From positions 32,001 to 96,000 of the IMG/VR virus record IMGVR_UViG_3300045988_135716: a stretch of 64,000 nt of DNA; one strand, written 5' to 3'. Below, piece by piece: positions 302 to 56,388 of the stretch; position 1 is the stretch's first letter, and the number at the start of each line of letters is the position of its first letter. The notes below the pieces were generated by a model that was given only the letters and a program-made list of their open reading frames with translations, had not been told where the DNA came from and searched no databases. The position numbers were made by a program, and so were the translations under genes. This DNA is from a virus.

Positions 302-1462
302 TTATTTCACATCCTTACCTGTTAATTCTCCAAATGAATCTACATTATATACTTCTAGCATCTTTAAAATAGCCCATTCAATTTCTTGTTCATATCCTTC
401 TTTATTAAGTACATAGATATTTGGAACATTTTGTGGTGGCTTTTTAGGATCTGGTTGTATACTACCTACTTCTCTTTTTATCAAAAGAGGTTTTTGGTTT
501 TCACTAGAAGAAGTTAAACATTGAATACATTGATTTAATGTATCTTTTGAAATTGCCAATTCTTTTGCCATACTTTCCATGCTGCGAAAAAATGCTTCTG
601 GTTTAGATTTAGGATTACTTATTGTTTCTTCATTATTTTTATTTTTTGGACGAATAAAAATATAAGAATTGATGTAAAGGAATGCCATTAATATATTCTC
701 TTTGTTAATACTTGATTCACTCATCATTATGAAGTCAAGTTGCGAAGATGTAATTTTTGAAAATTTATCTGTTGCGTCAAAATTCTCTGGTATAATATCC
801 ATTTGAATACATTCATTATATCCAACACTATGAATATCAAAATCAGAAGTAATATTAATCATGTTACTTTCATGTAAAAACAATAAACATTTGATTATTT
901 CAAAAAATATTTTAGGTTTGTGTTTTGTTTGCTTATATTTACATAAATTGAATATCTCTGAAATCACAATATATGATTGATCTTCATAACTTCTATGTTT
1001 ATCAATTAAGATATATATAAGATAAAAAATTCTATGTAAATGATATTTCTTTTTAATGTCTACCTGAATAAAGCTATTTGGAACTCTGGCAAAATATTCT
1101 TTGTGTTTATTCTCAACATATGGATTGTTTATTGGAACAATATCATCAAAATCAAATTGAAACGCTATACCCAAATTAAAATTAGAATTATTATATCCTT
1201 TCAATACTGAATCATATTTTGATATATAAAACTTCTCTAAAGTTCTTGCTTCTTTGTAACTGATATTTTCTTTTATAATTTCATGTGAAAATCCATCATT
1301 CCATCCATATTTCTGAATATCTTTATAAAATTTTTTGTTTTCTCTATATCCATTACCATTACTCCATCTTTCTTTTTCTGCTTGTTGAGTAATCCCAATA
1401 TATTTTTTTCCATTAACTAAATTTGTATGTATATATACTTTGTAATTGTTTATAATATTCAC
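302..1462 (-). CDS. GIY-YIG-type nuclease (homing-endonuclease-like) with long unassigned C-terminal domain
   Basis: N-terminal ~90 aa follow the GIY-YIG layout (VYIHTNLVNGKKYIGIT...R...FSHEII...EARTLEKFYI...YN). Confidence 0.65.
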   Translation of the reverse strand: MNIINNYKVYIHTNLVNGKKYIGITQQAEKERWSNGNGYRENKKFYKDIQKYGWNDGFSHEIIKENISYKEARTLEKFYISKYDSVLKGYNNSNFNLGIAFQFDFDDIVPINNPYVENKHKEYFARVPNSFIQVDIKKKYHLHRIFYLIYILIDKHRSYEDQSYIVISEIFNLCKYKQTKHKPKIFFEIIKCLLFLHESNMINITSDFDIHSVGYNECIQMDIIPENFDATDKFSKITSSQLDFIMMSESSINKENILMAFLYINSYIFIRPKNKNNEETISNPKSKPEAFFRSMESMAKELAISKDTLNQCIQCLTSSSENQKPLLIKREVGSIQPDPKKPPQNVPNIYVLNKEGYEQEIEWAILKMLEVYNVDSFGELTGKDVK

Positions 1463-1674
1463 CTTCCTTTTGACTTGGGCATATTATGCGAGCGTTCAGT
1501 TTACAACACCTGGGTGCTGTATGATTTTCAATTTTAGAAATTAGACATCAACTGGATGTTCTAAACTGAACAGAAAGAAGATATACTACTTTTTAATAAG
1601 ACAGACAAAATATATTTTATTTATTCATTACATTCATAAATAAAATATATTTTAAAAACCACATCTTGTTTGTA

Positions 1675-1881
1675 TCATTGAGTTATTGAAATATCATCCT
1701 CATACATTCCATTTTGTATATTCTCTCTTTGCTGGATATAAGTCTTAATACATTTCTCAATCTCTGGTTTATCAACTTCTCTTAACAGAGAGCCGATAAT
1801 TGATAGTATTAGTAGATTCTCTGAATGAATTAAATCAGCATAATTGTAAATCTTGTTTAATTTCTTTTCTAAATCTGTCAT
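1675..1881 (-). CDS. hypothetical protein
   Basis: Intact ORF co-oriented with minus-strand module; no family recognised. Confidence 0.4.
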   Translation of the reverse strand: MTDLEKKLNKIYNYADLIHSENLLILSIIGSLLREVDKPEIEKCIKTYIQQRENIQNGMYEDDISITQ

Positions 1882-1886
1882 ATGTA

Positions 1887-2093
1887 TTATTTTTCTCTTC
1901 TTTCTTTTAAAATATCTTCACACACTTGAATAGCCATTATGAAATAGTCAGTGTTACATTTTGGATTTACTTTGCATTTCTTGAAATACGTTTTCCATTC
2001 CAGGATAGTATCAGTTGATTGGTTTGCTAAGTTTTTCAGTAATCTATTATATTTTGGGCTGTGATTTTCAATTGTAATGGTCTTAGTGGACAT
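1887..2093 (-). CDS. hypothetical protein
   Basis: Intact ORF, 5 nt from next minus-strand gene; no family recognised. Confidence 0.4.
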   Translation of the reverse strand: MSTKTITIENHSPKYNRLLKNLANQSTDTILEWKTYFKKCKVNPKCNTDYFIMAIQVCEDILKERREK

Positions 2094-2331
2094 TTATGTG
2101 TTTCTCCCTTCAAATTGATTTTTGGTATATTTTTTATAAAGGATAATTATTTTGTGTCAAAAATTGTTGACATTACAAGTTTCTCTTTATGAAGTACTAA
2201 ATCATATTTCTCCAAAAGATTATCTACTAACTGCTCAAACAATACTCTTACAGTTTTATCATGCTCTATTGCATCTAATGTGTAACAAGTTTCTAGTTTA
2301 TTCTCGTAGCAATAATCATCTACAATCTGGT

Positions 2332-3009
2332 TTAGCTCAATATCAGGATATATATCTGAAATTCTCTATATAGATTCTTATAGAGATCTTTCAGTTGGAT
2401 TTCAAAATATTCTGCTAATGCTTGATATTTAGGGAACATTTTTGATTGCCAATATGTAAATCTCTGTTTCTTTGATAATGCTTTTGGTATATTATTGTTT
2501 TCCAATGTAGATACTCTTGATTCTAATGAATCAAATTTACTATCAATCTTTTGTACAAGACTGGTTACACTCTGCGCTAAAGCTTGAATATCATCATTTC
2601 TTGCTTGTAATTTAGCAGTAGCAATTTTTAATCCTTGCTCACAAGCGATAAAATAATCTCTTGCTTGCTCATGTTTCTCAGTATTACCTGTCATTGAAAG
2701 TTTCTTTGCAAATTCTGATGTGAGTTTATAATCTGTCTTTGGTTTTGGATTTTTTGGTTTATCTCGTTCTTCTTGCATGATGAACGGGAAATAATCTTCA
2801 TTTTCAGTTACAAATTTATTATTTACGATATTTTTCTTACACCATCTAGCAAAATTACTTGGATTCAATTCTAAAAAAGCATATAATTTACTTGCTGTTG
2901 TCATTCCATCTTTATCAATCTGCAATGCAATCTCAATAGGTGTCTTATCAGATGTTGATGGTGTGATAGTAGTTGTTGTATTATTTTTGTCGTCTTTTAA
3001 TTTTCTCAT
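2332..3009 (-). CDS. AntA/AntB-like phage antirepressor
   Basis: TASKLYAFLELNPSNFARWCKKNIVNNKFVTENEDYF matches the AntA N-terminal pattern; coiled-coil C-terminus. Confidence 0.6.
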   Translation of the reverse strand: MRKLKDDKNNTTTTITPSTSDKTPIEIALQIDKDGMTTASKLYAFLELNPSNFARWCKKNIVNNKFVTENEDYFPFIMQEERDKPKNPKPKTDYKLTSEFAKKLSMTGNTEKHEQARDYFIACEQGLKIATAKLQARNDDIQALAQSVTSLVQKIDSKFDSLESRVSTLENNNIPKALSKKQRFTYWQSKMFPKYQALAEYFEIQLKDLYKNLYREFQIYILILS

Positions 3010-3028
3010 AGTAATTGATCTCCTTTAT

Positions 3029-3545
3029 TTATTTGTGAAATTTCTTATTTGTGTTGTTTCTATCGGCAATAAGTTTTAAGCAGCTCATTTCTTTCTGATT
3101 ATTACTTCTCTGTTTAGTAATAATATTTTGTGTTGTATATGAATTAAATATCTTCTTACAAATCTTTGCTTTATATAAATTCTCTATATCAGATTTATAA
3201 TTTTGTACTGTGTATTCTGGTGAATATGGATCATATGAAAATTGACTCTTTTCTGAATTTAATATTAGCTTTAGGAAATAACATAACTCTCTGATTGATT
3301 TACCGTTTCCTCTTGAGAGATGGTAGTATGATTGTGGTGTTATTTCTGATATGTATATTCTCTTATCGGCAAGATATTTATTTGTTATGGATTTGATTTT
3401 GTTTAATGTTGCCGATGAAAAATTCCATTTGTATATTGTAAGTGGTTGAAATATATTTGAAGTAATTAATAAGATTGATAGGATATAATCTTGTGCCATT
3501 AAAATATTTAGTCAAATATTCATTACTGTTAATTTTATTATTCAT
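3029..3545 (-). CDS. hypothetical protein, apparently frame-disrupted (55-codon ORF 3545-3378 with strong SD, then 156-codon ORF 3499-3029 lacking SD)
   Basis: AAGGAG 8 nt before ATG at 3545; that frame stops at 3380-3378 in an A-rich run while the overlapping frame continues to 3029. Confidence 0.4.
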
Positions 3546-6212
3546 TTGTGTAATCTCCTTTTTATTTTAATGATTTTTGATAATTATTATTTCTCTCTTT
3601 GCGGATTGAAATATTTAGTTTGCATGTTACTGGTTGTAGATTCTCTATTTGAAACAAAGATGATCTATTTTTGCTGGTGAAAATTTGAGGTTAGGTGGGA
3701 TATGAGAGTAGTGATTTTTGTGAATGTAAAAGTACCCCCACTTATCTTTCTATCTAATATTCTCTATTTGAGATTCTGCTTGAGATATTTGTTGTAGATT
3801 ATATGATGTAGATTTAATTTGAAAATTGTAACGTGCAAATGCTAAGTTGCTCAAGTGATGGTATTTGTGATGTTTATTCTAAGTTGTACATTAGAATAGT
3901 GAGCATAGAATTGATTTTAGAGTTGTAGATGATATGTGATTGATATGAAATTGAAATGATTGTATCTTGAAGTGTAACTTTAGCATTTCAAGATTTTTTA
4001 TAATGTATTTTTGAGTAAATTTTTGTGATTAGAATTGTGTGAAAGTTTGACACAATTTAGAGAGGTATTTCCTGATGATGTGAGATTATGGACTTCGAGA
4101 TAGGTGTTTTGGGTGATAATTTTGATTGAGATGGGAGAGTGATGTGTACTTTTAATAGGAAATGATTGCTGCGTTTTAGGTAGATGTGGCAAGGGAATAT
4201 GGGATATTGCAGGATGATAAAATTAAATTAAGTTTATGATCTTGAGATATATAATTAGGTATCACTTCGAGAAGACTTCGTAAATTGTTAGATTTTGCAA
4301 GGGATATTGTGATTTGGAGTAGGTAATTTTGGGTGAAAATTGGTGATTTAGAATTGTCAGAAAATTTATTTTGCGTTGATATGCAAGGGTGCGGTCGAAC
4401 TCAGTCTCGAACTCATTTTGATTATTTTGGTGAATTGTGTGTAGGTTTAGTGCAATTTGTGAGGTGGTATGAGGGTGAGAAATTTTTTGTTGCTGGTGGT
4501 GAGTGTAGAGTGATGGATTACCAGTTTTGATTTTTGGACGAGTAGTGTGAGTTGAACTCATCAGTGGATATGACAATATCATATTAAAATTACAAATGTA
4601 AACTATCCCCGTCCTACTGGTATACATTATAAAACAGGATCATAAAATCGGATTAAAATAGTGTAATATGCAATTCCCGAAAAGCCTTGCTATTGTTGAA
4701 TAAAACTAACTTTTGCACTTTTGTGGGAAGTGTAAAAAAGTCAAGTTTTGTTATTATTTGACATTTTTACTCCGGTCAAAAACATGGGGGTGGTACAGGA
4801 TATAAAAGTTAGTATGATAAAACTAAAATTTTATCGGGTATTCTGGATATGAGATCACGGGACGGTAGACTTTAATTGTATAGACAATTATAAATATTAT
4901 TATAGTATACTCGAAAAAAGGAAAAGTGAGAAAATGAAAGAAAACAAGAGAAAATGAGCGAAAAAACGTGAATAAATGACTATCGGTCAATTCTGTTCGT
5001 TATGTTGGATTTCCAACAAAAAATTTGATTACAAGATTGTAACACAAAATCATAACACAAACTTATATCACCACTTGCACCACAAAAACGTAACAAAATA
5101 GACTAATACACTCCACTTTATACCCAAAAACAGCGGTAAAAATGGGATAGCGCACCACTACAAAATAATACATAAATGTAACACAAAAATTGTATCACAC
5201 TCATATAACACAAAAATCTGGACGAAATAAAACCATCTGGACGCACAACAGTAGACTCTACCAGATAGCAAGATCACACCCCAAACCATCCCCCAAAATA
5301 CAATATAAAATCATATTAACATAACACAATATACTCATACAATAACATCAAATAACCATACATAAACTCACAATAATATACAATATAATATACATTATAT
5401 ATCACATAATACATCACATATAACTTACAATATACATCTATCTATATTCAACTATATACCTACAATATACCACATAATATTACTATTATAATACCTCTGA
5501 TATATCATACAATATACTACAATACATACTCATACAATCAACCATAATGCCACATAATATAACGCATAATATACTCACACTAACCACACCACATTATACA
5601 ATCTGCATCCTATAAAACCATTGCAAATACTACATTCTAACACCATCCAGGGATTAAAATATAACATCAGATCACGATAAAATTATCTTAAAACAGGACG
5701 CAAAACACCACATAAAAACAGATAAAATTATACTCCAAACAAGATAAAAACCACACGCCAAACAGATAAAAATACCTCACATTTCAATCATAAATCAGAC
5801 AAAATACTCACACTTTACCGCAATATTTTACCCATTCGCACACAAAAAACAACGCTATTCTATACAAAATTTTGCATAAAAATACATCAATCAAACTGTA
5901 TAAATATACAATATTCTTGCATAAAATAGCGCACATTTTGACGTAAAAATACACCTAAAAACATATTAAAATGATACAAAAATATCATCATGCTGCACGT
6001 TTCAAACAGTCCAGATATACGATTGTAAATATATCATACTTACAAAATGACCTTGTAAAACGCTCTATAAACGACTTTAAGCGCATAACCCTATATAATT
6101 ATCATATCTAATATAAAAGCCCTTAAAACGTCAAATACACGCTTATAAGGCTATCTGTACATTTTGAACATGATAACAATAGGTTGTTTGTGTTACTTCC
6201 TATTATATGTGG
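3546..6212. other. 2.7-kb ORF-free region with mirrored strand composition (C-poor arm ~3600-4560, mixed core ~4620-4990, G-poor arm ~5040-6000)
   Basis: Hand counts: 69 C in 3601-4560 (about 7%); 56 G in 5041-6000 (about 6%); no G at all 5273-5498; only low-complexity ORFs. Confidence 0.8.
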
Positions 6213-6692
6213 CTAATACAACTGTTTTATCTTTGACAACATAGTATCTATATAACTATCTAATTCATTGTAATTTCTTCCATACCATAATAAATGTGCA
6301 ACAAAATCTATTTCTATATCTGCACATCTTCCGTTATTTAAGGCGTTGTATATATCTTCTTTATTGACTCTATATCTTCCATTTGATAACTTTTGATTAT
6401 ACTGTATATTATTATATCTAAGCATATCTAAACATCTTGACACGTTACCAGATACAATAAAAAATTTATATATTATATCTGTTATGCTGTCAGTGTCAGT
6501 TATAAATAAACATTTCCTTATTATATGGCGTATATACTCTATAAATAAATCATCATATAAATAATGTATATTTCCATTATCAAACAACTTTAAAGCATCA
6601 TAATAGTTTATGTCTCTTAAATGTTCTATGTGCTCTTTTGTTATTTTATCGTCTATCATATATTTATTTATAACCTTTTCTGTCAAGATCAT
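6213..6692 (-). CDS. hypothetical protein (downstream partner of RHH gene)
   Basis: 159-aa ORF overlapping the upstream RHH gene by 29 nt; no family recognised. Confidence 0.5.
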   Translation of the reverse strand: MILTEKVINKYMIDDKITKEHIEHLRDINYYDALKLFDNGNIHYLYDDLFIEYIRHIIRKCLFITDTDSITDIIYKFFIVSGNVSRCLDMLRYNNIQYNQKLSNGRYRVNKEDIYNALNNGRCADIEIDFVAHLLWYGRNYNELDSYIDTMLSKIKQLY

Positions 6693-6852
6693 CCTGTATT
6701 AGCTTCTTGATATATACGCTCATTGGTATGTTATTATCTTTTGCATACCGTTTCATTCTTGCACATTCTTCCGTTTCTTCTGGTGTATATTTAAGTTTTA
6801 CAACTGTACATCTATCATTATAATCTTTTTGTGATTTTGGGCTATATGCCAT
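6664..6852 (-). CDS. ribbon-helix-helix (CopG/Arc-like) DNA-binding protein
   Basis: 62 aa; beta-strand then two helices pattern (CTVVKLKYTPEETEECARMKRYAKDNNIPMSVYIKKLI); paralog of 26390-26575; sits next to palindromic operators. Confidence 0.6.
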   Translation of the reverse strand: MAYSPKSQKDYNDRCTVVKLKYTPEETEECARMKRYAKDNNIPMSVYIKKLIQDDLDRKGYK

Positions 6853-6924
6853 AATTCTTACACCTTTCTTTATTTATTATATGTAATAATTCTCTTTTTC
6901 TTTTTGGTGTAAGAGTAGTATTAC

Positions 6925-6953
6925 ATATTAACATTATAGCTTTATCCTGTCAA
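6925..6953 (-). promoter_or_regulatory. candidate leftward sigma-A-type promoter
   Basis: Minus strand TTGACA (6953-6948), 17 nt, TAATAT (6930-6925), upstream of RHH gene. Confidence 0.45.
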
Positions 6954-6985
6954 CTTTTCTATTGACATTTGTGTATATTGTACTA

Positions 6986-7075
6986 ATAGGGTACCCTATG
7001 CAAATATGTAAATTATACACAATTCACAAACATAAAAAATCATAGGGTAACCTATTGACTAATAGGGTACCCTAT
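6986..7075. promoter_or_regulatory. three copies of a 14-bp palindromic operator ATAGGGTACCCTAT
   Basis: Perfect copies at 6986-6999 and 7062-7075; one-mismatch copy at 7042-7055; located between divergent promoters. Confidence 0.7.
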
Positions 7076-7083
7076 GGTATAGT
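7055..7083 (+). promoter_or_regulatory. candidate rightward sigma-A-type promoter
   Basis: TTGACT (7055-7060), 17 nt (spacer is the operator copy), TATAGT (7078-7083). Confidence 0.6.
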
Positions 7084-7158
7084 AATACCATCAACAGAGG
7101 GGCAGAGATAAAATCAAAGTTCTAAAGTTGATAAAACTAAATAAAGGAGGTGACTCCA

Positions 7159-7266
7159 ATGACATATCCAATCGGATATCGTGGTCACTGTTTTCTTGCA
7201 ATAGTCAATGGCAAGTTGATGCAATTTGCAAGTGATACAGAATACTACGAATACATAACGGATTAA
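7159..7266 (+). CDS. 35-aa micro-ORF (MTYPIGYRGHCFLAIVNGKLMQFASDTEYYEYITD)
   Basis: AAAGGAGG 7 nt upstream of ATG; first ORF after rightward promoter. Confidence 0.5.
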   Translation: MTYPIGYRGHCFLAIVNGKLMQFASDTEYYEYITD

Positions 7267-8046
7267 TCATTGATGAGGGCATAGCCACAAGGCTTATAAG
7301 TCCCTCAAAATCACTTCCTTAAATGGTATTATACCATATTTAGTTTTTAACTACAAGTTAATCTAATAAGTCCCAAACAAGATTGAAACGGGCACACACT
7401 GAACCTTGCAGTTGAATAAAGGGTTGACTACTCGACAGCGAAAACTGTTATATGAGAGTCCTGGGTATCTGCCTCGAAAGAGATATTAGCGCATTCTGAA
7501 TTGCTGAAAGTATAGTAACAAAATCAGACGTTTGTAGAAAAGGTTTTTAACGTGAAAAAACTTGACCGTCAATGTGATCAACAGGGAATCACACAAAAAT
7601 AATAAGTTAGGGACGGGATAATAAATCAGAATTTAGTTTTACATAAAAGCAACTTATTAACAATAACATACTTGTAATAAGTGGCAAGTTACTTTTTTAC
7701 GGAATATCTAAAGCAACAAAAAATGGAGTCAAAACCATTTCAAAAAAAGAATGTGATGACCAAACTAAATAGTGGACGGTTTGTCTGGTATGAGTACCAC
7801 TTTAAAAGATAGGAAATCAGTCAAAAGCATGAGACAGCTTAATCATTCAAAAAATACGGTTGTCCGTATCCGATCAAAAAACGGGGAAAGATGCAAAACA
7901 AAGACCTAAGATTTGTTTAGACTGAAATAGTTTACTTGTTATCTATCAATGATACATAAAAATAAGTCGTTATCATAAAACGTTAAAAGCGTTCTGATTT
8001 ACGAAAAATCATTGCAAGCGGTTAATCATTAATCACTTGCTTTTTT
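7267..8046 (+). ncRNA. candidate large structured non-coding RNA / long structured 3' UTR
   Basis: About 780 nt with no credible ORF in any frame in an otherwise gap-free genome; visibly higher GC than flanks; many local hairpins (7274-7307, 7435-7448, 7473-7482 CTC-GAAA-GAG, 7652-7682, 7854-7869); ends at a terminator. Confidence 0.4.
8014..8046 (+). terminator. rho-independent terminator
   Basis: GCAAG...CTTGC stem with inner TTAAT/ATTAA pairing followed by TTTTTT. Confidence 0.55.
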
Positions 8047-8224
8047 GTTTTACTTAGGTTGCAAGGCATTATCAACAAGCAAAGTTATTTGAAAGACGGG
8101 CAAAAGCGTAAGACCCGTGGCGGTGAGTAGTAGTCAAGTATAAATAATTTCTAATGTTGAATTATAATGGCTTGCAAAAATGAGAACAAAAAGAGAATAC
8201 ATAAACATACAGGAGGGAAATACG

Positions 8225-8551
8225 ATGACAACATATGTAGACGTAATTGCAAGAAAAGATACTATCACAATTGATGGTTATACATCAAACAAAACAGAAC
8301 GTGGCATTATTAAAGATGTTGCAAGAGTAGTTTCAAAATACGATCAGAGTGAAGCCAACACTCTTCTTGATTACTTAAAAATGGGGTTGAACAAGTACAA
8401 TACTCCATTTGCTAAAGCATCTGAAAGTGAAGGCGGTTATTTCTTTGAATATGAAGAAGTGCCATGTGCTACAAGATACAATGAAGAAACTGACGAGATG
8501 AAATATAAAGAAGGTTATTACAACTACTTTTGTATTAGAATTGTTAAATAA
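8225..8551 (+). CDS. hypothetical protein
   Basis: ORF; AGGAGGG SD before ATG 8225 (upstream in-frame ATG 8180 has no SD). Confidence 0.5.
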   Translation: MTTYVDVIARKDTITIDGYTSNKTERGIIKDVARVVSKYDQSEANTLLDYLKMGLNKYNTPFAKASESEGGYFFEYEEVPCATRYNEETDEMKYKEGYYNYFCIRIVK

Positions 8552-34641: not shown

Positions 34642-35592
34642 TTGTACGCATTTTTTGGAAGGGGGTCTGATTATATAAATAATTATGTAGATTGTGGTTC
34701 TTATTATATTGGGACTACTAAAACAGGATTAAAATTTTATTTTGATAAGAAATATTATAATATAGTATCTTTATATCATTGGAAAATGAATAGTGATCAT
34801 ATTCCAGTAACATGCGTTGATAATAAATATGTTTCAATTAAGAAAATATTATTTGGAAATATATCATTAAAACATATTAACGGGAATAAATCGGACATAA
34901 GAGAAGAAAATTTAATACCAACAAGAGGATTAAATCATGATGGTAAAACTTTTTTGAATGGTTATATTTCTATCTACATGCCAGAACATAAACGAGCATT
35001 TGATAATGGGTGTGTATATGAACATGTGTTAGTTGCAGAAAAAATGTTAAATAGAGAATTAAAAGAAACAGAATGCGTACATCATATAAATCATATTAGA
35101 ACAGATAATCGTCCAGAAAATTTGATGGTATTTCGTACAAACAAAGACCATATTTTGTTTCATGCAGGAAATTATGCAATTTTATTGGATGATGGCTCGT
35201 ATGTCGTTGATGATAAAAAGATAGAATATTTATATAAATATAATAATAGAACTGCGGAAGAAATTAAAAATAACGTTGAGGATAAAGGTTCAGTTACAGT
35301 AATTACATATAAAAGACAGATAGGAAAAGATTTATGTCCAGTCTGTTTAAAACATATGAAATCAATAAAAGCAAAAATGTGTAAAGAATGTTGGGACAAA
35401 GAAAAAAGTACAAATATACCTACAAAGGAAGAACTTGAAAAATATATTTATGATTTTTCATTTGAAAAAATCGGAAAAATGTATGGTGTAACAGGTAAGA
35501 ATATAACGAAATGGTGTAAAAAATATAATTTACCATATAGAAAAAAGGATATGGATAAAAATGAAAGGGGCGATGTAAATTGGATTGCTTAA
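34642..35592 (+). CDS. HNH homing endonuclease (two HNH_3-like motifs, C-terminal HTH)
   Basis: KHINGNKSDIREENL and VHHINHIRTDNRPENLMVF...H; TTG start in track, true start uncertain. Confidence 0.7.
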   Translation: MYAFFGRGSDYINNYVDCGSYYIGTTKTGLKFYFDKKYYNIVSLYHWKMNSDHIPVTCVDNKYVSIKKILFGNISLKHINGNKSDIREENLIPTRGLNHDGKTFLNGYISIYMPEHKRAFDNGCVYEHVLVAEKMLNRELKETECVHHINHIRTDNRPENLMVFRTNKDHILFHAGNYAILLDDGSYVVDDKKIEYLYKYNNRTAEEIKNNVEDKGSVTVITYKRQIGKDLCPVCLKHMKSIKAKMCKECWDKEKSTNIPTKEELEKYIYDFSFEKIGKMYGVTGKNITKWCKKYNLPYRKKDMDKNERGDVNWIA

Positions 35593-40010: not shown

Positions 40011-40288
40011 CTCAAATTTACAAGAACCTTATAAATTATGAAATGTACGTATGTACATACGTTGTCAACTAAAAATAGAATAAGTGATACATAAGTTGAA
40101 CTACATTATTATAAGAGAATATGTTATTGTGTCGCTCTAGCAATAATTATATCGTGAAAAGCTAAACATCCATTACATAATTCTGTAAAACACTCTTAAT
40201 GGAAGTGCTTGAACATCAAAGACTTATAATAATATTTTCGAAGAGCATTACCAGTTTTATACTGAGATTATATTTAAGGACAAAGAAA
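40011..40288 (+). ncRNA. anti-repeat plus omega-RNA/tracrRNA-like scaffold leader of the IscB gene
   Basis: 40024-40037 GAACCTTATAAATT is the perfect complement of 39991-40004 in R3; ~250 nt ORF-free, contains 16-nt palindrome 40047-40062; abuts SD/ATG of IscB. Confidence 0.55.
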
Positions 40289-41842
40289 ATGAATTACTTA
40301 GATTTTGCATTTGTAATAGATAAAAATAATAATCCTTGTATGCCTATTTATGAAGGATATGCAGGTAAATTATTGAGAAGTAAAAAAGCAGTTATTGTAA
40401 ATCATGATCCATTAGTTGTACAAAGACACGATGAATATAATGCAGATTTAGAGTTTAGAGATAGAATTACATTAAAAGTAGATACTGGATATGAAAATAT
40501 AGGATTTTCAGTCAGTGATAGTAAACATGAATATTTATCAGGTCAAGTTAAATTGCTTAATGGAATATCTAAGAGGTTATTGGCTAGAAAAGAACATAGA
40601 GGTTGTCGTAGACAAAGATTAAGATATAGAAAAAACAAAGCCATAGACTATAAAACAGTTAATAATCCAACATATAAAAATGGGAATCAAGATGGTTGGT
40701 TAGCACCTTCAATTTTACATAGAATTAATTCGCATTTGAGATTAGTTGATAAAATTGCTTCTTGGATTCCAATTGATAAAGTGATTATTGAAACTGCGAA
40801 CTTTGATATACAGAAAATAAAAGCTATATTAAACGACAAAGAAATTGAAGGAGTCGAATATCAGTTAGGAGAAATGTATGGATTTGAAAATGTTAAACAG
40901 TATGTAAGAGAACGAGACAATTATACTTGTCAAATATGCGAAGCTGGACAAGATAAAGATAAGAAAAATGTTCCTATAGAAGTACATCATATTATTCCAC
41001 GTTCAAAAGGAGGTTCTAATAAGCCAGATAATTTAATTTCGTTATGTAAAACCTGTCATAAAAAAGTTCATATGAATAATAATGACAATGATTTATTTAG
41101 AAAATTGCAACATGATGGAGTGAAAAATACATACAAAGATGCTTCATTTATGAACATCATGAGATGGACGCTATATAATCAGTTAAAAGAAAAATATGAC
41201 GTATCTATATCATATGGTTATATAACAAAATTAAATAGACGAATGGCAAATCTGAAAAAGTACCATTATATTGATGCGTTGTGCATTTCAGATTATCATG
41301 AAATTACACTTACTAAAAATATTTATTTAGTTGAACAAAAACGATGTAATGATAGATGTATGGAATCGTTTTTTGATGCCAAATATATTGATAGTAGAGA
41401 TAATAAAATAAAGGAAGGAACTGAATTATGTAAAGTCAGAAAATCATATGCATCGAGAAGATCTACAAGAAAAGAAGATATTGAAAACAATCGTATTTTT
41501 AGAAAAGAAAAAGTTGAAAAAGGAAGAAGACAATATAGATGTCATTCATATTGTTTAAAAGCAGGAGATTTAGTATATATAAATTATGGAAAACATAAAG
41601 GCAAAATAGCAGAATTTTCAACAATGAAAAAAACTCCAACTGGTTCATATCAAATAAAATTTATTTATGATGGACAAGAATGTAAATGTCCATCAATATC
41701 TATCAAACCAGAAGAGTATATTCAATTAACAACAAATCAATGTGACAAAGTAAAAATTGTACGTACTCGTAGAGGTATGATTTGGCGAAAAACTGATAGA
41801 TTAGAATATGAGTCAAACACACCTGAACAGTATAGACCTTAA
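40289..41842 (+). CDS. iscB: IscB-family RNA-guided nuclease (PLMP-RuvC-bridge helix-HNH-RuvC), 517 aa
   Basis: FVIDKNNNPCMPI (PLMP-like); KVDTG (RuvC-I); RGCRRQRLRYRKN (bridge helix); IIETANFD (RuvC-II); CQIC...HHIIPRSKGGSNKPDNLISLCKTCH (HNH); HYIDA (RuvC-III); AAGGA SD 8 nt before ATG 40289. Confidence 0.85.
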   Translation: MNYLDFAFVIDKNNNPCMPIYEGYAGKLLRSKKAVIVNHDPLVVQRHDEYNADLEFRDRITLKVDTGYENIGFSVSDSKHEYLSGQVKLLNGISKRLLARKEHRGCRRQRLRYRKNKAIDYKTVNNPTYKNGNQDGWLAPSILHRINSHLRLVDKIASWIPIDKVIIETANFDIQKIKAILNDKEIEGVEYQLGEMYGFENVKQYVRERDNYTCQICEAGQDKDKKNVPIEVHHIIPRSKGGSNKPDNLISLCKTCHKKVHMNNNDNDLFRKLQHDGVKNTYKDASFMNIMRWTLYNQLKEKYDVSISYGYITKLNRRMANLKKYHYIDALCISDYHEITLTKNIYLVEQKRCNDRCMESFFDAKYIDSRDNKIKEGTELCKVRKSYASRRSTRKEDIENNRIFRKEKVEKGRRQYRCHSYCLKAGDLVYINYGKHKGKIAEFSTMKKTPTGSYQIKFIYDGQECKCPSISIKPEEYIQLTTNQCDKVKIVRTRRGMIWRKTDRLEYESNTPEQYRP

Positions 41843-49000: not shown

Positions 49001-49984
49001 TTGAGTCATTTAGTTGAAAATAATAATTCATCTGAGAATGGATTAAGAGTATTAAGTCTATTCGATGGTATATCTTGTGGCAGAATTGCATTGGATAGAG
49101 CTGGATTTAAGGTTAAAGATTATTACGCTTATGAGATTGAACAGAATGCAATCAAGATAAGCAGATATAATTATCCGTCCATTTATCAATGTGGTGATGT
49201 TTTTGATGAAGATTTTAGTAAATATGATGGTATTGATTTGTTAATTGGTGGCAGTCCCTGTACTGAATTTTCAGTAGCAAAGTGTTCTAAAACTGCAAAA
49301 CATAAAAGAGAAGTCGTGCCTGGTGGAGATGGTTGGAAATTGTTTATGCAATATGTAAGAGCGTTACATGAATCGAAACCAAAATATTTTCTATATGAGA
49401 ACAATTATGGCATTGCAGATTCTATACGTGATGCTATCACAAAAGAACTTGGTGTTGAACATGTGCTTTTAGACAGCCAATTAGTTTCAGCTCAAAGACG
49501 TAAGAGATTATATTGGACGAATATTCCAATAAAAGGAGAACCAGAAGATAGAGGAATTTTAGTAAAGGATGTGATTGTAAATGATTCTGAACTAATTAAG
49601 CAGTTTGATGATCGTATTAGAAACACATTAGTCAAATGTGAGAATTACATAAAATATGATTTAAGTGGCAAAGGACATTTTTCTCAGCAAGATAGGATGT
49701 ATTTTCTTAATAATAAAGCACCAACAGTTCCAAGATGTAGAACTGAAACTAAATTTAATGTTTGGTTAGGTGGAGAAACATATAAGAAAACTTGTCCTGT
49801 TGAGATAGAAAGACTTCAAACATTACCAGATGGATATACGGAGTTTGGGTTGAATGAAGATGGAAGCATTGTGAAAATGCCGAAAACAAGAAGATTTGAA
49901 GCTATTGGTAACGGTTGGACTGTTGACATTATAGCTTGGATATTTAGTTTTATGAAGGAGAAACAAGATGCAAATAACAGCTAA
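49001..49984 (+). CDS. DNA (cytosine-5)-methyltransferase
   Basis: LFDGISCG (I), GGSPCTEFS (IV), ENNYG (VI), QRRKRLYW (VIII), GNGWTV (X); TTG start. Confidence 0.85.
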   Translation: MSHLVENNNSSENGLRVLSLFDGISCGRIALDRAGFKVKDYYAYEIEQNAIKISRYNYPSIYQCGDVFDEDFSKYDGIDLLIGGSPCTEFSVAKCSKTAKHKREVVPGGDGWKLFMQYVRALHESKPKYFLYENNYGIADSIRDAITKELGVEHVLLDSQLVSAQRRKRLYWTNIPIKGEPEDRGILVKDVIVNDSELIKQFDDRIRNTLVKCENYIKYDLSGKGHFSQQDRMYFLNNKAPTVPRCRTETKFNVWLGGETYKKTCPVEIERLQTLPDGYTEFGLNEDGSIVKMPKTRRFEAIGNGWTVDIIAWIFSFMKEKQDANNS

Positions 49985-50834
49985 AAGCTATTTTAGTGGA
50001 GCAGGAGGAATGGATTTAGGAATAGAGGAATCTGGAATTAACATAATTGAATCGTATGAGATAGATAAAAAGTGTTGCGACACTTTGAGAAAGAATTTCA
50101 AACATCATGTAAATGAGTCAGATATTACACAGATTACAGTTCTCGATCAGAATGATGCGGATGTTTATATTGGTACATTTCCATGTACACGATATTCAAC
50201 CATTGCTGATATTTCAGGTATAAGAACAGGTGATGATTTATTTTTACATTTCTTTAGGCATATTGCTTTAGCACAACCAGAAATGTATGTAGTAGAAAAC
50301 GTTCCTGGAATGCTTAAATTCAAAGTAGTTATGGAAGCATTGACAAAATTACCTGATTATTACGTGAGAGTTGAATGTCCTATTAACGCAAATATGTGGT
50401 TGCCACAAGAAAGAAAACGATTGATTCTAATTGGAAGTAAGAAACCATTTACCAATTTTGATTATCCTGATTCTCAACCATTAAAACTGAAAGATATTAT
50501 CGAAAATGATGCTTCGATTGATATTCCACAATATGTATATAATCGCATTAATGGAAAATATAGAGATAAACCAATTGTTTCAGATCCAGATAATGATGAT
50601 CTTGCTCCAACATGTGTAGCGCATTACGCAAAAGATAAAGGAACAAGATTAATCAAAGATGGAAAGAGAATTAGACCATATACAGTAAGGGAATATGCTA
50701 GACTGCAAGGTTTTCCAGATTGGTTTGAGTTCTGTGGAACAGATAATGATGCTTATAGACAGATTGGTAATGCTGTTGCTGTTCCAATGGGACGTTGGAT
50801 TGGCAAACAGATTGTAAAATATTTTAATTCATAA
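49968..50834 (+). CDS. DNA (cytosine-5)-methyltransferase (second, overlapping by 17 nt)
   Basis: FSGAGGMDLG (I), GTFPCTRYS (IV), VVENVPG (VI), QERKRLILIG (VIII), RQIGNAVAVP (X). Confidence 0.85.
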   Translation: MQITAKSYFSGAGGMDLGIEESGINIIESYEIDKKCCDTLRKNFKHHVNESDITQITVLDQNDADVYIGTFPCTRYSTIADISGIRTGDDLFLHFFRHIALAQPEMYVVENVPGMLKFKVVMEALTKLPDYYVRVECPINANMWLPQERKRLILIGSKKPFTNFDYPDSQPLKLKDIIENDASIDIPQYVYNRINGKYRDKPIVSDPDNDDLAPTCVAHYAKDKGTRLIKDGKRIRPYTVREYARLQGFPDWFEFCGTDNDAYRQIGNAVAVPMGRWIGKQIVKYFNS

Positions 50835-52245: not shown

Positions 52246-52794
52246 ATGAAAAGACAAAAAGCAAATAAAAAGATCCAAAATATTGTTGGAAATATTTGTT
52301 GCAATTGCGGAAAAACAGATCATATAGAATATCATCATATAGTTCCGTTGTCATTGGGAGGAAATGATATTGAATCAAATATTGTTCCAATATGTCATGT
52401 TTGCCATATGGCAGCTCATCATGGTAGGAATATCAATCATTACTTTGGTTCATTCAATAAAGGTGGAAGACCTTCAATCGCTAATATTGAAGACGATTAT
52501 AATATTTTTGATATGTATATAAATGGTGAAATTGGAAATAGAATGGTAAAACAAATGCTTGGATATTCTGATTCAACACAAATCAAAGATAGATCTGTTT
52601 TTAAAAAATACATAAAATCTAAAGGTATAAGTAGTATAAAAAATATCATAGATGTAGCAGCAACAAATAGATCCGATGGATTAAAAAATGGAGATGTAGT
52701 TGGAGAAATTATATATGAAGATGGTAGGCATGAAGATATTATTTATAAAGATACAGGATATAATCTTGTAGAATACCATCATCGTTGTAGTTGA
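52246..52794 (+). CDS. HNH endonuclease with C-terminal extension
   Basis: CCNCG...IEYHHIVPLSLGGNDIESNIVPICHVCH..AH. Confidence 0.8.
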   Translation: MKRQKANKKIQNIVGNICCNCGKTDHIEYHHIVPLSLGGNDIESNIVPICHVCHMAAHHGRNINHYFGSFNKGGRPSIANIEDDYNIFDMYINGEIGNRMVKQMLGYSDSTQIKDRSVFKKYIKSKGISSIKNIIDVAATNRSDGLKNGDVVGEIIYEDGRHEDIIYKDTGYNLVEYHHRCS

Positions 52795-54116: not shown

Positions 54117-55480
54117 ATGAACTACGAAGATTTTCTAAAACAAAAGGATTATGTTCTGGAAAGTAGTGGATTTAATATTGATAAAGATAAATTAAATCCC
54201 ATGCTATTTGACTTTCAGAAAGACGTAGTAAGATGGGCATTAGCAAAAGGTAGAGCTTGTATTTTTGCAGAGTGTGGGCTTGGTAAAACGCCAATGCAAT
54301 TATCATGGGCGCATCAAGTACATCTACATACGGGCGGTAAAGTTTTAATTCTTGCACCTCTATCGGTTGCGGATCAGACAAAGAGAGAATCTGAAAAATT
54401 CCATTACAATGCAAAAGTATGTGAGAAACAGGAAGATTGTATTGATGGAATCAACATTACAAACTATGAGAAATTAGACAAATTCGTAGCAAATGAATTT
54501 GTTGGAGTAGTCTTAGACGAGAGTTCAATTCTTAAATCCTACACTGGTAAAGTGAGGACTTCTATTATCGAGAATTTCCAAAATGTTCCCTATAAATTAG
54601 CTTGTACTGCGAACCTGCCCCAAATGATTATATGGAGTTGGGAAATCATTCGGAATTTTGTGGAGTTATGACACGTTCAGAGATGTTATCAATGTTCTTT
54701 GTTCATGATGGTGGTCAAACATCTAAGTGGAGATTAAAAGGTCATGCAAAAGATGTATTTTGGCAATGGATGGCAAGTTGGTCTGTATTTATTGATAATC
54801 CATCAAATTTAGGATATGACGGTACAGATTATGAATTACCTAATTTGAATATTCATGAAATTATAGTTGATGGAGATGAACCAATCACTGAATCACTCAC
54901 ATTAACAGAGCGTAGAAATGCAAGAAAAGATACTCTTGAATTAAGATGTCAAAAAGCAGCAGATTTAGTAAATAATTCAGATGAACAATGGTTAGTCTGG
55001 TGTGATCTTAATGCAGAAGGCGATAGATTGAATGAACTGATTGAAGAAAGTAAAAACGTTCAAGGAAGTGATAAGAATAAATACAAGAGTGAAACAATGC
55101 TATCATTTTCTGATGAAAAATTAAAATGTCTTATCAGCAAGCCACAGCTCGCAGGATATGGCATGAATTGGCAGAATTGCCACAATGTTATTTTTACTGG
55201 ACTTTCTGATAGTTTTGAGCAATATTATCAGGCTGTAAGAAGATGTTGGCGTTTTGGTCAGACAAAAGAAGTCAATGTATACATAATCATTTCAGCAAAA
55301 GAAGGTTGTGTAAAAGAGAATATTGAAAGAAAGCAATTAGATTTCATTACTATGAGAGATGCAATGATTAATCTGACTAAAGAAATTACTAAGAAAGAGC
55401 TTAAATCAACGTGTAGGCTTACTACACCATATGAAGCAAATACAACAATGAAATTACCAAATTGGGAGGAATTCAAATAA
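54117..55480 (+). CDS. SNF2/DEAD-like helicase, split by a 1-nt frame shift at ~54612-54614
   Basis: ECGLGKTPMQ (motif I), VVLDESSILK (II), ...KLACTA | PAPNDYMELGNHSEF... continues in next frame; QAVRRCWRFGQTKEV (VI); two track ORFs 54117-54671 and 54602-55480. Confidence 0.75.
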
Positions 55481-56388
55481 TGATGAACGTAATTGATCAA
55501 GCAGTAGCAAATAGATATGCACTTTATCATGGAGACAGTGTAGAAATTACTAAGGAGATTCCAGATAATAGCATTCACTACACTATCTTTTCACCACCAT
55601 TTTCACAGTTATATGTGTACTCTAATTCAGATAGAGATATGGGTAATTGTAAAGGTGATGAAGAATTCTATAATCATTTCAAATATCTTGCAAAAGAATT
55701 ATATAGAATTACAATGCCTGGACGACTTCTGAGTTTTCATTGTATGGATTTACCTCTTATGAAATCAAGAGATGGTGTAATTGGATTAAAAGATTTTCCT
55801 GCGCTCATGCTTAAAATCTTTCAGGATTGTGGATTTATCTATCATAGTAAAGTAACTATTTGGAAGAATCCTGTTACAGAAATGCAAAGAACAAAAGCAC
55901 TTGGGCTTTTACATAAACAGATTAAGAAAGATAGTAGTATGAGTCGTCAAGGACTTCCAGATTATGTGATCACGGTTAGGAAGCCTGGTGATAATCCAGA
56001 ACGAGTTGAACACACAAATGAATCATTTCCTGTTAATGTATGGCAAAATTACGCTTCACCTGTATGGATGGACATTAGGCAGAGTGATACATTACAGAGA
56101 AAATCAGCAAGATCTGAACAGGATGAGAAACATATTTGTCCATTACAGCTTGAAGTAATTCAGAGATGTATTGAATTATGGACGAATCCAAACGATATTG
56201 TGTTTGATCCGTTTGGTGGAATTGGTTCTACTCCATATGTTGCACTTAAATTAGGAAGAAGAGGAATTGCAAGTGAATTAAAAGATAGTTATTTTGAGCA
56301 GTTGAAGAAAAATGTAGAGTCTGTGGCTGCCGAAGAACCAGAATTATTTCCAGTTGGAGAAAAGAGTATTGAGGATGTAGTCGCATAA
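55480..56388 (+). CDS. beta-class DNA amino-methyltransferase (N6-adenine or N4-cytosine)
   Basis: IFSPPF (motif IV) precedes FDPFGGIGST (motif I); GGGAGG SD; TAATG overlap with helicase stop. Confidence 0.8.
   Translation: MMNVIDQAVANRYALYHGDSVEITKEIPDNSIHYTIFSPPFSQLYVYSNSDRDMGNCKGDEEFYNHFKYLAKELYRITMPGRLLSFHCMDLPLMKSRDGVIGLKDFPALMLKIFQDCGFIYHSKVTIWKNPVTEMQRTKALGLLHKQIKKDSSMSRQGLPDYVITVRKPGDNPERVEHTNESFPVNVWQNYASPVWMDIRQSDTLQRKSARSEQDEKHICPLQLEVIQRCIELWTNPNDIVFDPFGGIGSTPYVALKLGRRGIASELKDSYFEQLKKNVESVAAEEPELFPVGEKSIEDVVA

What the first reader, a model, noticed from the sequence alone, without database searches (positions are those of the whole stretch)
3546..6212. 2.7-kb non-coding tract with mirror-image strand composition, including a 226-nt G-free run
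**Seen (hand counts)**
- The plus strand of 3601-4560 has only 69 C (about 7%) while being G+T rich.
- After a mixed core (about 4620-4990), the plus strand of 5041-6000 has only 56 G (about 6%) and is A+C rich.
- There is no G at all from 5273 to 5498, and only 2 G in 5273-5548.
- The G-poor arm is built from degenerate short motifs: TACAATATA about 6 times, CACATAATA about 4 times, CTCATACAAT 3 times and CCAAACA(A)GATAAAAA twice.
- The C-poor arm repeats GTTGTAGAT, TGAGAT and GGGATATTG.
- The core carries GAGAAAATGA twice and the AGATCAC and ATCTGGACG repeats.
- The only ORFs are low-complexity artefacts of the skew.

**Inference**
- Reading outward from the core, both arms are G-depleted.
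- Possible roles are a bidirectional replication origin, the physical genome termini of a linear phage joined in the assembly, or a pair of unstructured C/A-rich transcripts acting as a protein sponge or decoy. None of these can be decided from sequence alone.
Basis: seen in the sequence. Interest (0 to 1): 0.65.

Follow-up and report, generated by a model that had tools for sequence, protein, structure and literature searches.

The report
G-free-flanked control region, probable phage origin
A 2.7-kb gene-free stretch, conserved in a common ~175-kb temperate phage of human-gut Clostridia, looks most like a large replication origin, and natural selection keeps the DNA strand running away from its centre almost free of G on both sides.

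Summary
The tract is non-coding.

The same mirror composition occurs in all 27 IMG/VR relatives. The conserved core motif was also found in 40 further human-gut metagenome and MAG contigs.

The bias is maintained by selection, not mutation. In the right arm, per-site A>G and G>A rates are equal, yet A is 47% and G 6%. C and T sit at neutral equilibrium. The left arm shows the mirror pattern.

The anatomy is origin-like:
- an invariant 43-bp core block;
- 10-bp phased purine repeats;
- a clade-specific short-repeat module, which in 14 of 54 relatives is three perfect DnaA boxes plus one near-perfect;
- the least stable duplex of the whole 64-kb window, which is the G-free run;
- about 450 bp of A-tracts phased at 11 bp.

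Recombination breakpoints fall in the core. Physical termini are not supported: the phage is temperate, with an integrase and a tRNA-type attP elsewhere, and contig ends do not cluster in the core.

Best reading (about 0.45): a composite lytic origin whose outward-running single strands must stay G-free. G-less outward RNAs remain a serious rival. No replication or transcription data were available.

The parts
3546..3615 (-). Start region of the conserved leftward gene. It holds the Shine-Dalgarno sequence AAGGAGA and ATG at 3545, and a possible sigma-70-like promoter (TTTCAA-17-AATAAT on the minus strand).
   Evidence: Read from the sequence. The block is conserved in alignment A1. The promoter is inferred only.
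3601..4560 (.). Left arm. The + strand is T/G-rich with 7% C, so the minus (outward) strand is A/C-rich and G-poor. The sequence is highly conserved.
   Evidence: Segment 3937-4560 is 83-94% identical among close clades and 73-75% identical in the most distant clade. Selection against C on the + strand is shown.
3724..3739 (+). Copy 1 of the motif ATGTAAA..TA.CCCC, which brackets the conserved part of the left arm.
   Evidence: The motif occurs only twice in the window and only twice in the 176-kb relative. It is conserved in A1.
3964..4004 (+). A conserved 12-bp hairpin followed by a T-run. It is terminator-like for rightward (inward) transcription.
   Evidence: scan; conserved in all 12 aligned sequences.
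4032..4058 (.). Conserved inverted repeat AATTGTGTG...CACACAATT.
   Evidence: One pair changes on both sides.
4093..4559 (.). Short conserved repeats that hold many of the rare C's of the left arm: GACTTCGAG (4093, 4264), GACTTCGTA (4275), TCGAACTCA (4397, 4409), TTGAACTCA (4551) and GCAAGGG (4189, 4299, 4384).
   Evidence: Read.
4596..4610 (+). Copy 2 of the ATGTAAA..TA.CCCC motif, at the left edge of the core.
4561..4770 (.). Conserved half of the core (mixed composition). It includes the 43-bp block GGAAGTGTAAAAAAGTCAAGTTTTGTTATTATTTGACATTTTT at 4726-4768. The first 29 nt of this block are invariant, apart from a 1-nt deletion in L013. The block contains the inverted repeat GTCAA-N13-TTGAC at 4740-4762.
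   Evidence: An exact 23-26-mer from the block was found in 25 viral, 38 metagenome and 2 MAG contigs.
4771..5018 (.). Variable half of the core. It holds the palindrome AATTGTATAGACAATT (4874-4889), 10-bp phased purine/A-tract repeats GAGAAAATGA (4917-4965), and the palindrome GTTGGATTTCCAAC (5004-5017). The last becomes GTTGCATTTGCAAC in the distant clade, a compensatory change. Recombination breakpoints fall here.
5019..5215 (+). Clade-specific short-repeat (iteron-like) module. In the window this is TAACACAA repeated 5-7 times. Other clades carry ATTCATAAT 6-10 times at 11-bp spacing, or three perfect plus one near-perfect DnaA boxes (TTATCCACA).
5216..5295 (+). GC-richer cluster with ATCTGGACG twice, AGATCAC, and C-runs. 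It holds several of the rare G's of the right arm and is conserved.
5273..5548 (.). G-free run, with one G at 5499. It is built of alternating A-pyrimidine steps such as ATACAT, CACATA and TATACA. It is the least stable duplex and the most strictly alternating purine-pyrimidine stretch of the whole 64-kb window, so it is a candidate unwinding element.
5500..6000 (+). Array of about 30 A-tracts, all on the + strand, phased at 11.0-11.3 bp. This is predicted to be intrinsically curved DNA. It includes 22-23-bp repeats at 5716-5772.
   Evidence: The spectral power is 27-42 against a shuffle maximum of about 14. The array is present in the main clades and absent in the DnaA-box clade.
5041..6000 (.). 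Right arm as a whole. The + (outward) strand is A 47%, C 23%, T 24% and G 6%. The sequence is poorly conserved between clades, but the composition is held constant.
   Evidence: Selection against G is shown.
6001..6212 (.). Right boundary segment of mixed composition. It is conserved (about 72% identity in the distant clade) and ends at the stop codon of the convergent gene 6213-6692.

Best explanation
The tract is a cis-acting, non-coding control region of a ~175-kb temperate phage of gut Clostridia. It is most likely the origin of lytic replication.

Proposed mechanism (inferred, not shown):
- Factors shared by the whole lineage bind the invariant core (4726-4768).
- A clade-specific initiator binds the repeat module at 5019-5215. 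In one clade the initiator would be the host DnaA.
- Phased A-tracts bend the DNA.
- The duplex opens in the adjacent alternating A-pyrimidine run (5273-5548), which is the weakest duplex in the region.

On both sides, the strand that runs 5'->3' away from the core is kept almost free of G by purifying selection. That strand therefore cannot fold, cannot form G-U, G-C or G4 structures, and carries no start codon.

This is the strand displaced by outward leading-strand synthesis. It is also the strand on which a DnaB/gp4-type 5'->3' helicase-primase, which this phage encodes, would load and travel.

The same polarity would also fit outward G-less primer or activator transcripts.

Shown here: conservation, selection, the repeat modules, duplex instability and A-tract phasing.
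Inferred: that replication starts here, and which single-stranded species is under selection.
For: Conservation:
- The mirror composition is present in all 27 IMG/VR relatives.
- It is numerically constant in 23 distinct sequences: left-arm C 4.8-7.3%, right-arm G 4.8-6.5%.
- Right-arm identity nevertheless falls to 55-66% between clades.

Selection rather than mutation:
- Right-arm singleton rates per site are A>G 0.164 and G>A 0.172, which would give A=G. The observed values are A 47% and G 6%.
- T>C 0.143 and C>T 0.133 match the observed C 23% and T 24%.
- A/G variants are enriched among singletons relative to C/T variants (odds ratio 4.2, p=6e-8).
- The left arm shows the mirror pattern (odds ratio 6.1, p=1e-6).
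- The core control shows no asymmetry.
- A<->G and T<->C changes have the same effect on duplex stability. The constraint must therefore act on one strand.

Origin-like anatomy:
- The clade-specific repeat module beside the core includes three perfect DnaA boxes within 45 nt in 14 of 54 sequences.
- Those ~20-kb loci hold no other perfect box. The 64-kb window holds none, and the 176-kb relative holds one.
- The least stable 100-bp and 250-bp windows of the 64 kb fall in the G-free run, about 3.6 SD from the mean. The same holds in most relatives.
- A-tracts are phased at 11 bp over about 450 bp, and purine repeats are phased at 10 bp in the core.
- A palindrome shows a compensatory change between clades.
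- Mosaic recombination breakpoints lie in the core.

Genomic context:
- The tract lies 0.7-8 kb from the point where the two large gene blocks diverge.
- The phage has its own replisome, including a gp4-like primase-helicase.
- No conserved RNA structure was found (SCI 0.2-0.3), and there is no Rfam match.
Against: - There is no direct evidence of initiation. No coverage, marker-frequency or replication-assay data were available.
- No initiator gene was identified next to the tract. The flanking genes have no recognisable domains.
- The window's own clade has no consensus DnaA box.
- I could not see DnaA-trios beside the boxes of the DnaA-box clade by eye.
- The curved A-tract array is missing in that clade.
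- At 2.7 kb the tract is very large for a phage origin.
- The 83-94% conservation of the left arm is not explained by a need for an unstructured strand alone.
- The replication genes lie about 65 kb away.
- Strand-specific selection is equally well explained by an RNA product.
Confidence: 0.45

Rival explanations
1. The tract is a divergent non-coding transcription unit. Promoters in the core drive two outward RNAs of about 1 kb that are G-less, A/C-rich, unstructured and untranslatable. The left one could be a long leader of the conserved gene at 3545. These RNAs would act as RNA: as Rho-loading or attenuation zones, or as decoys or sponges for a host single-strand RNA-binding factor such as Rho, Hfq or a G-independent nuclease. 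The DNA repeats would then be regulatory operators.
For: - Selection acts on one strand only.
- The outward strands are predicted to be almost structure-free (-68 kcal/mol over 960 nt, against -243 for the complement).
- ATG, GTG and TTG all contain G, so a G-free RNA has none of these three start codons and no Shine-Dalgarno sequence. This follows directly from the sequence.
- C-rich, G-poor, unstructured RNA is the textbook Rho substrate (established knowledge; PMC9160355 was listed but not read).
- The outward strand carries A-runs and few T-runs, so outward RNAs would have few U-tract terminators.
- Both TTGAC halves of the invariant inverted repeat look like divergent -35 boxes.
- A minus-strand TTTACA-18-TATTGT promoter-like site at 4573-4602 sits just where the G-poor stretch begins.
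- The left arm abuts a gene that is always linked to it.
Against: - No promoter is conserved across all clades.
- Helical (10-11 bp) phasing, DnaA boxes and minimal duplex stability are properties of DNA, not RNA.
- A rightward transcript would have no gene to express and would run antisense into convergent genes.
- The right arm's primary sequence is not conserved.
Confidence: 0.3
2. Transcription enters the tract from both sides and runs inward. The selected property would then be absence of C in the RNA or in the non-template strand. G/U-rich, C-free RNA escapes Rho, and the strongly positive GC skew in the direction of transcription favours R-loops. Such R-loops could prime or activate the core, as at ColE1, T4 or mitochondrial origins.
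For: - The minus-strand genes 6852->6213 point into the right arm, and no terminator was detected after them.
- GC skew of 0.6-0.9 in the inward direction far exceeds the skews linked to R-loop formation at CpG-island promoters (established knowledge).
- A C-free displaced strand would be immune to cytosine deamination.
Against: - Inward RNAs would carry a U-tract about every 11 nt.
- They would also meet a conserved hairpin plus T-run at 3964-4004.
- No convincing rightward promoter is conserved at the left edge. The candidate site at 3780-3807 is missing in the distant clade.
- The genes to the right are variable between relatives.
Confidence: 0.1
3. The tract is a nucleoprotein scaffold unrelated to replication. 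Examples would be a centromere-like or partition site, a silencing nucleation site for host nucleoid proteins on the prophage, or a strong gyrase or plectoneme-pinning site.
For: - Long arrays of 11-bp phased repeats and A-tracts are present.
- A small gene that looks like a ribbon-helix-helix protein lies nearby at 6664-6852 (read by eye).
- The phage is temperate.
Against: - No ParA- or ParM-type gene is adjacent, and the neighbouring genes vary between relatives.
- Binding to double-stranded DNA does not explain selection that distinguishes A>G from T>C.
- DnaA boxes point to replication.
Confidence: 0.07
4. The core is the junction of the physical ends of a linear genome, with telomere-like G/T-rich 3' strands, joined by the assembler.
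For: Read toward the core, the 5'->3' strand is G/T-rich on both sides, which is the polarity of eukaryotic telomeres.
Against: - The tract is contiguous in more than 50 assemblies. In 5 of 9 full-length contigs it lies mid-contig.
- The ends of 19 whole short contigs scatter and do not coincide in the core.
- Long contigs end at the integrase/attP site with foreign flanks.
- MT835469 has no terminal repeat.
- The core is 480 bp of conserved unique sequence.
Confidence: 0.03
5. The skew is a neutral by-product of strand-asymmetric mutation, such as deamination of a strand that is often single-stranded, as in vertebrate mitochondrial DNA.
For: The pattern is amino/keto: A+C-rich against G+T-rich. 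This resembles the L and H strands of mitochondrial DNA (established knowledge).
Against: - Per-site forward and reverse transition rates are equal (A>G 0.164 vs G>A 0.172; T>C 0.116 vs C>T 0.109 in the left arm). Mutation alone would therefore erase the bias.
- The disfavoured alleles are confined to terminal branches.
- The left arm is under strong sequence constraint.
Confidence: 0.03

Closest known systems
Iteron- or DnaA-box-type theta origins of phages and plasmids (lambda ori, P1 oriR, SPP1 oriL/oriR) and bacterial oriC
   Same: It is a non-coding region with a cluster of short direct repeats, which are true DnaA boxes in one clade. It has an adjacent helically unstable stretch and intrinsically bent, phased A-tract DNA. 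The repeat specificity is swapped between related genomes, and the region lies near the early/switch region of a temperate phage.
   Different: It is roughly ten times larger. No adjacent initiator gene was found. It has a highly conserved ~900-bp arm of unknown role. It carries a selected, mirror-image exclusion of G from the outward strands over about 1 kb on each side, which I have not seen described for any origin. Its skew polarity is opposite to the usual origin signature.
Transcript-primed or R-loop origins (ColE1 RNA II, T7 primary origin, T4 oriF/oriG, lactococcal phage c2 ori, herpesvirus oriLyt)
   Same: These are large non-coding origin regions where an untranslated transcript and a displaced single strand take part in initiation. 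This phage has a T7-like primase-helicase.
   Different: No phage RNA polymerase promoter and no conserved promoter was identified. No conserved RNA fold was found. In ColE1 and mitochondria the RNA is G-rich at the hybrid, whereas here the outward strand is G-less.
Rho utilisation (rut) regions, and the laboratory 'G-less cassette'
   Same: Like rut regions, the outward transcript would be C-rich, G-poor, unstructured and untranslated.
   Different: rut sites are about 80 nt long, not about 1 kb, and are not arranged as a mirrored pair. Transcription of the arms is not shown.
Vertebrate mitochondrial DNA strand asymmetry (G-poor L strand, G+T-rich H strand)
   Same: It shows the same amino/keto type of asymmetry and a similar magnitude (G about 5%).
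   Different: In mitochondria the asymmetry is mutational and genome-wide. Here it is local, mirrored about a centre, and maintained by selection.

Membership tests
Iteron/DnaA-box replication origin | A cluster of direct repeats or initiator boxes in a non-coding region | tested here: met
   TAACACAA occurs 5-7 times in the window. Other clades carry ATTCATAAT 6-10 times at 11-bp spacing, or 3 perfect plus 1 near-perfect TTATCCACA in 14 of 54 relatives.
Iteron/DnaA-box replication origin | An adjacent DNA unwinding element of low helical stability | tested here: met
   The least stable 100-bp and 250-bp windows of the 64 kb lie at 5358 and 5298. The same location holds in most relatives.
Iteron/DnaA-box replication origin | Intrinsic bending by phased A-tracts (a common accessory feature) | tested here: inconclusive
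   A strong 11-bp phasing is present in the main clades (power 27-50) but absent in the DnaA-box clade.
Iteron/DnaA-box replication origin | A cognate initiator gene in or next to the origin | tested here: not met
   The flanking ORFs have no Pfam or PHROG match to initiators. The 561 homologues of the linked gene are all unnamed. The replisome genes lie about 65 kb away.
Iteron/DnaA-box replication origin | Replication starts here (autonomous replication, bubble arcs, or a copy-number peak) | not testable with these tools
   No reads, coverage or experiments were available.
Bacterial basal unwinding system (DnaA boxes plus DnaA-trios, PMC8287927) | At least 3 trinucleotides 3'-NAN-5' within 16 bp of a DnaA box | tested here: not met
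   The window has no consensus box. In the DnaA-box clade the flanking sequence alternates with period 2, and I saw no trio register by eye.
Physical genome termini or terminal-repeat junction | Independent contigs end at the same coordinate, or a terminal repeat is present | tested here: not met
   Contig ends are scattered. MT835469 has no terminal repeat. Common contig ends lie at the integrase/attP site.
Rho-dependent terminator or rut region | A C-rich, G-poor, unstructured, untranslated RNA segment | tested here: met
   This holds for outward transcripts only: C 23-25%, G 6-7%, and -68 kcal/mol over 960 nt.
Rho-dependent terminator or rut region | The segment is transcribed in that direction, and termination depends on Rho | not testable with these tools
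   No transcript data were available, and promoter scans are inconclusive.
Known structured non-coding RNA families (Rfam 15) | A match to a covariance model | tested here: not met
   There were no matches at gathering score for the whole window and none at E<=1 for 3300-8400. Structure conservation index is 0.2-0.3.
Protein-coding gene (including recoded genes) | A conserved open reading frame | tested here: not met
   Indels of 1, 11 and 20 nt occur among relatives.

The most novel reading that the evidence does not exclude
The two arms are a new kind of element. They would be a mirrored pair of ~1-kb single strands, either RNA or displaced DNA, that selection keeps G-free so that they stay unstructured and untranslatable.

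One version is that a prophage-encoded pair of G-less RNAs titrates a host single-strand-binding machine, such as Rho, during induction. The other is an origin design in which both helicase-loading strands are kept structure-free over a kilobase. Neither has been described for phages.
Probability: 0.25. Interest if true: 0.8.

Novelty: new variant of a known kind. Interest (0 to 1): 0.62.

Why it matters
- This phage lineage is common in human gut metagenomes. The linked gene has hundreds of homologues, and dozens of ~170-kb contigs were found. Nothing is known about how it replicates or switches.
- A 2.7-kb conserved non-coding region with swappable initiator-site modules would be a handle for origin mapping, host prediction (DnaA-box clade) and engineering.
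- More generally, the finding is a clean natural case of selection that excludes one nucleotide from one strand of non-coding DNA, shown by population data rather than by composition alone.
- Whatever reads that strand (helicase, primase, Rho or another factor), the element gives a testable example of function encoded in strand composition rather than in sequence.

Tried and rejected
- tRNA scan and Rfam searches (gathering score, and E<=1): nothing found.
- Arms as inverted repeats of each other, or tandem-repeat arrays: only weak composition-driven matches.
- Stop-codon recoding to open ORFs: no gain in the tract.
- Conserved RNA secondary structure in the left arm and core on either strand: low structure conservation index, with only two local hairpins.
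- Conserved sigma-70 promoters: many weak sites, none universal.
- MazF-type UACAU decoy idea: TACAT is about 3.4-fold enriched, but only as part of the general alternating A-pyrimidine pattern. I did not pursue it.
- DnaA-trio search beside the DnaA boxes: not evident.
- Termini: rejected from contig ends.
- Neutral mutational skew: rejected from singleton rates.
- Function of the linked flanking gene: no domains or names.
- Cultured relatives: none. The only GenBank relative is the unannotated MT835469.
- Literature searches for a described equivalent: none found.
- Whether the PurA-like gene means a 2-aminoadenine genome, which would abolish A-tract bending: unresolved. The best PDB matches are ordinary PurA.
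Full report
**1. What the window is**

The window has about 30% G+C. Nearly all genes from about 6.9 kb onward lie on the + strand. Genes at 302-3545 and 6213-6852 lie on the minus strand.

The only GenBank phage relative is MT835469, an unannotated 176-kb record from human faeces. In that genome, + strand genes fill 6-92 kb. Minus-strand genes fill 92-176 kb and 0-6 kb. The tract therefore sits just inside the start of the minus block, 0.7 kb (window) to 8 kb (MT835469) from the point where the two blocks diverge.

The phage encodes a T7 gp4-like primase-helicase, a 1102-aa DNA polymerase, a clamp, a ligase and NrdD.

It is temperate:
- An ORF that I read as integrase-like, from its N-terminal sequence, lies at about 92-94 kb of MT835469, with a partial tRNA (attP-like) just upstream. 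I ran no domain search on this ORF.
- Three IMG/VR contigs begin there with 198 nt of unrelated DNA.

Two MAG bins that carry the element are labelled Clostridia and Lachnoclostridium. Strong AGGAGG-type ribosome sites and TTGACA/TATAAT promoters fit such a host. This last point is read from the sequence.

**2. The observation**

The small corrections are given in the observation check.

- GC skew swings from +0.67 to -0.75 across a 480-bp core of mixed composition.
- The right arm is unique in the window and in the 176-kb relative.
- The left arm's C-poverty is matched by some + strand coding regions. It is odd only for its position, its lack of coding, and its T-richness.
- The tract is non-coding.
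- The arms are not inverted repeats of each other.

**3. Conservation**

Twenty-seven IMG/VR relatives were found through the flanking gene. All carry the same pair of skewed arms. The core motif retrieved 38 further human-gut metagenome contigs and 2 MAG contigs.

Conservation differs between the parts:
- In 23 distinct sequences, left-arm C is 4.8-7.3% and right-arm G is 4.8-6.5%.
- The left arm and the left half of the core are conserved in sequence. Segment 3937-4560 is 83-94% identical in the close clades, often more than the neighbouring gene, and about 72% in the most distant clade.
- The right arm is alignable only among close clades, yet it keeps its composition.
- A block at 4726-4768 is nearly invariant, and its first 29 nt are identical in all sequences aligned except for one 1-nt deletion.
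- Sequences are mosaics with breakpoints in the core. L044 has a distant-type left arm and a window-type right half. L027 is 100% identical to the window on the right and 92% on the left.

**4. Selection, not mutation**

I took singletons in the alignments as recent changes.

Right arm, + strand:
- A>G is 0.164 per A site and G>A is 0.172 per G site. Equal rates would give A=G, but A is 47% and G is 6%.
- T>C is 0.143 and C>T is 0.133, which matches C 23% and T 24%.

Left arm, + strand:
- T>C is 0.116 and C>T is 0.109, but T is 39% and C is 7%.
- A>G is 0.079 and G>A is 0.081, which matches A 28% and G 25%.

Variants that create the excluded base are frequent as singletons but rarely shared:
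- Right arm: A/G 81 singleton and 28 common, against C/T 65 and 95 (odds ratio 4.2, p=6e-8).
- Left arm: odds ratio 6.1, p=1e-6.
- The core shows no such asymmetry.

A>G and T>C alter duplex stability equally. The constraint therefore acts on one strand, as RNA or as single-stranded DNA. This step is inference from the data.

The simplest common description is that the strand running 5'->3' away from the core may use A as its only purine. Such a strand has almost no predicted structure (-68 kcal/mol over 960 nt, against -243 for its complement). A fully G-free strand cannot contain ATG, GTG or TTG.

**5. Anatomy of the centre and right side**

From left to right:
- Invariant core with the inverted repeat GTCAA-N13-TTGAC.
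- A variable half-core with a palindrome at 4874-4889, 10-bp phased purine/A-tract repeats at 4917-4965, and a palindrome at 5004-5017 that changes in a compensatory way in the distant clade.
- A module of short direct repeats whose sequence differs by clade. It is TAACACAA in the window, ATTCATAAT at 11-bp spacing in another clade, and three perfect plus one near-perfect DnaA boxes in 14 of 54 sequences.
  - Those loci contain no other perfect box. The window holds none, and the 176-kb genome holds one.
- A GC-richer cluster holding several of the rare G's, in ATCTGGACG and AGATCAC.
- The G-free alternating A-pyrimidine run. It is the least stable duplex and the most strictly alternating stretch of the 64 kb.
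- About 450 bp of A-tracts phased at 11.0-11.3 bp, with power 27-50 against a shuffle maximum of about 14. These are absent in the DnaA-box clade.

These are features of double-stranded DNA and of protein-DNA assemblies. Together they resemble a replication origin.

**6. The left arm**

The conserved part is bracketed by a motif, ATGTAAA..TA.CCCC, found nowhere else in the genome. Many of the arm's rare C's sit in short repeated motifs.

It has a conserved hairpin plus T-run at 3964-4004 that would stop rightward transcription. It shows no conserved global fold. Its role is unexplained.

**7. Termini**

- Short whole contigs end at many positions, mostly inside the low-complexity right arm.
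- Long contigs end at the att site.
- MT835469 has no terminal repeat.

The termini idea is rejected.

**8. Verdict**

The best-supported reading is a large composite origin-type control region whose outward-running single strands are kept G-free.

The polarity matches two things. It matches the strand displaced by outward leading-strand synthesis. It also matches the strand tracked by a 5'->3' gp4/DnaB-type helicase. Both points rest on established enzymology and are inference here.

The same polarity equally fits outward G-less transcripts, which are ideal Rho substrates and untranslatable. Sequence alone cannot separate the two.

I found no described equivalent in Rfam or in the literature searches.

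Noticed in passing
window 6870-7100: This is a divergent switch-like region. Three 16-bp palindromes of the type AATAGGGTACCCTATT (6985, 7041, 7061) overlap sigma-70-like promoters, for example TTGACT-17-TATAGT at 7055-7083. They lie between the leftward gene 6664-6852 and the rightward early genes.
   Followed up: partly
window 6664-6852 (-): This 62-aa protein has a sequence that looks like a ribbon-helix-helix (Arc/CopG-type) DNA-binding protein. That is my reading by eye; there is no Pfam or PHROG hit. It may be the repressor that acts on the neighbouring palindromes.
   Followed up: no
window 7270-8170, especially about 8075-8165: This is a second ORF-poor stretch, richer in G+C. Near its 3' end, just upstream of gene 8180-8551, a hairpin keeps 9 pairs through changes on both sides in 2 of 4 relatives. 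It is a candidate structured leader RNA with no Rfam match.
   Followed up: partly
MT835469 about 92.3-94.1 kb (L065 42350-44100); L111, L113 and L115 positions 1-560: An ORF that looks integrase-like by eye lies here with a partial tRNA (attP-like) just upstream. Three provirus contigs start here with 198 nt of non-phage DNA. The phage is therefore temperate and integrates at a tRNA gene.
   Followed up: partly
window 61327-62427 (+): This is a 366-aa adenylosuccinate-synthetase homologue. It matches PHROG 1211 (annotated '2-aminooxy adenylosuccinate synthetase', which I take to be the PurZ family) and Pfam PF00709. The best PDB matches are ordinary bacterial PurA. Whether the phage makes 2-aminoadenine DNA is unresolved.
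   Followed up: partly
window 3029-3545 (-): The gene always linked to the tract appears split in the window, into a 55-aa ORF and a 156-aa ORF in different frames. Its homologues elsewhere are 199-209 aa. This suggests a frameshift or an assembly error.
   Followed up: no
window 302-1462, 34642-35592, 40199-41842, 52246-52794; 49001-50834, 55462-56388: The window holds many GIY-YIG and HNH homing-endonuclease genes and several DNA methyltransferase genes. An AntA-type antirepressor at 2332-3009 is absent from MT835469.
   Followed up: no
MT835469 95106-95118: A third, looser copy of the tract's bracket motif (TGTAAATATCCCC) lies about 1 kb from the att site. Its significance is unknown.
   Followed up: no
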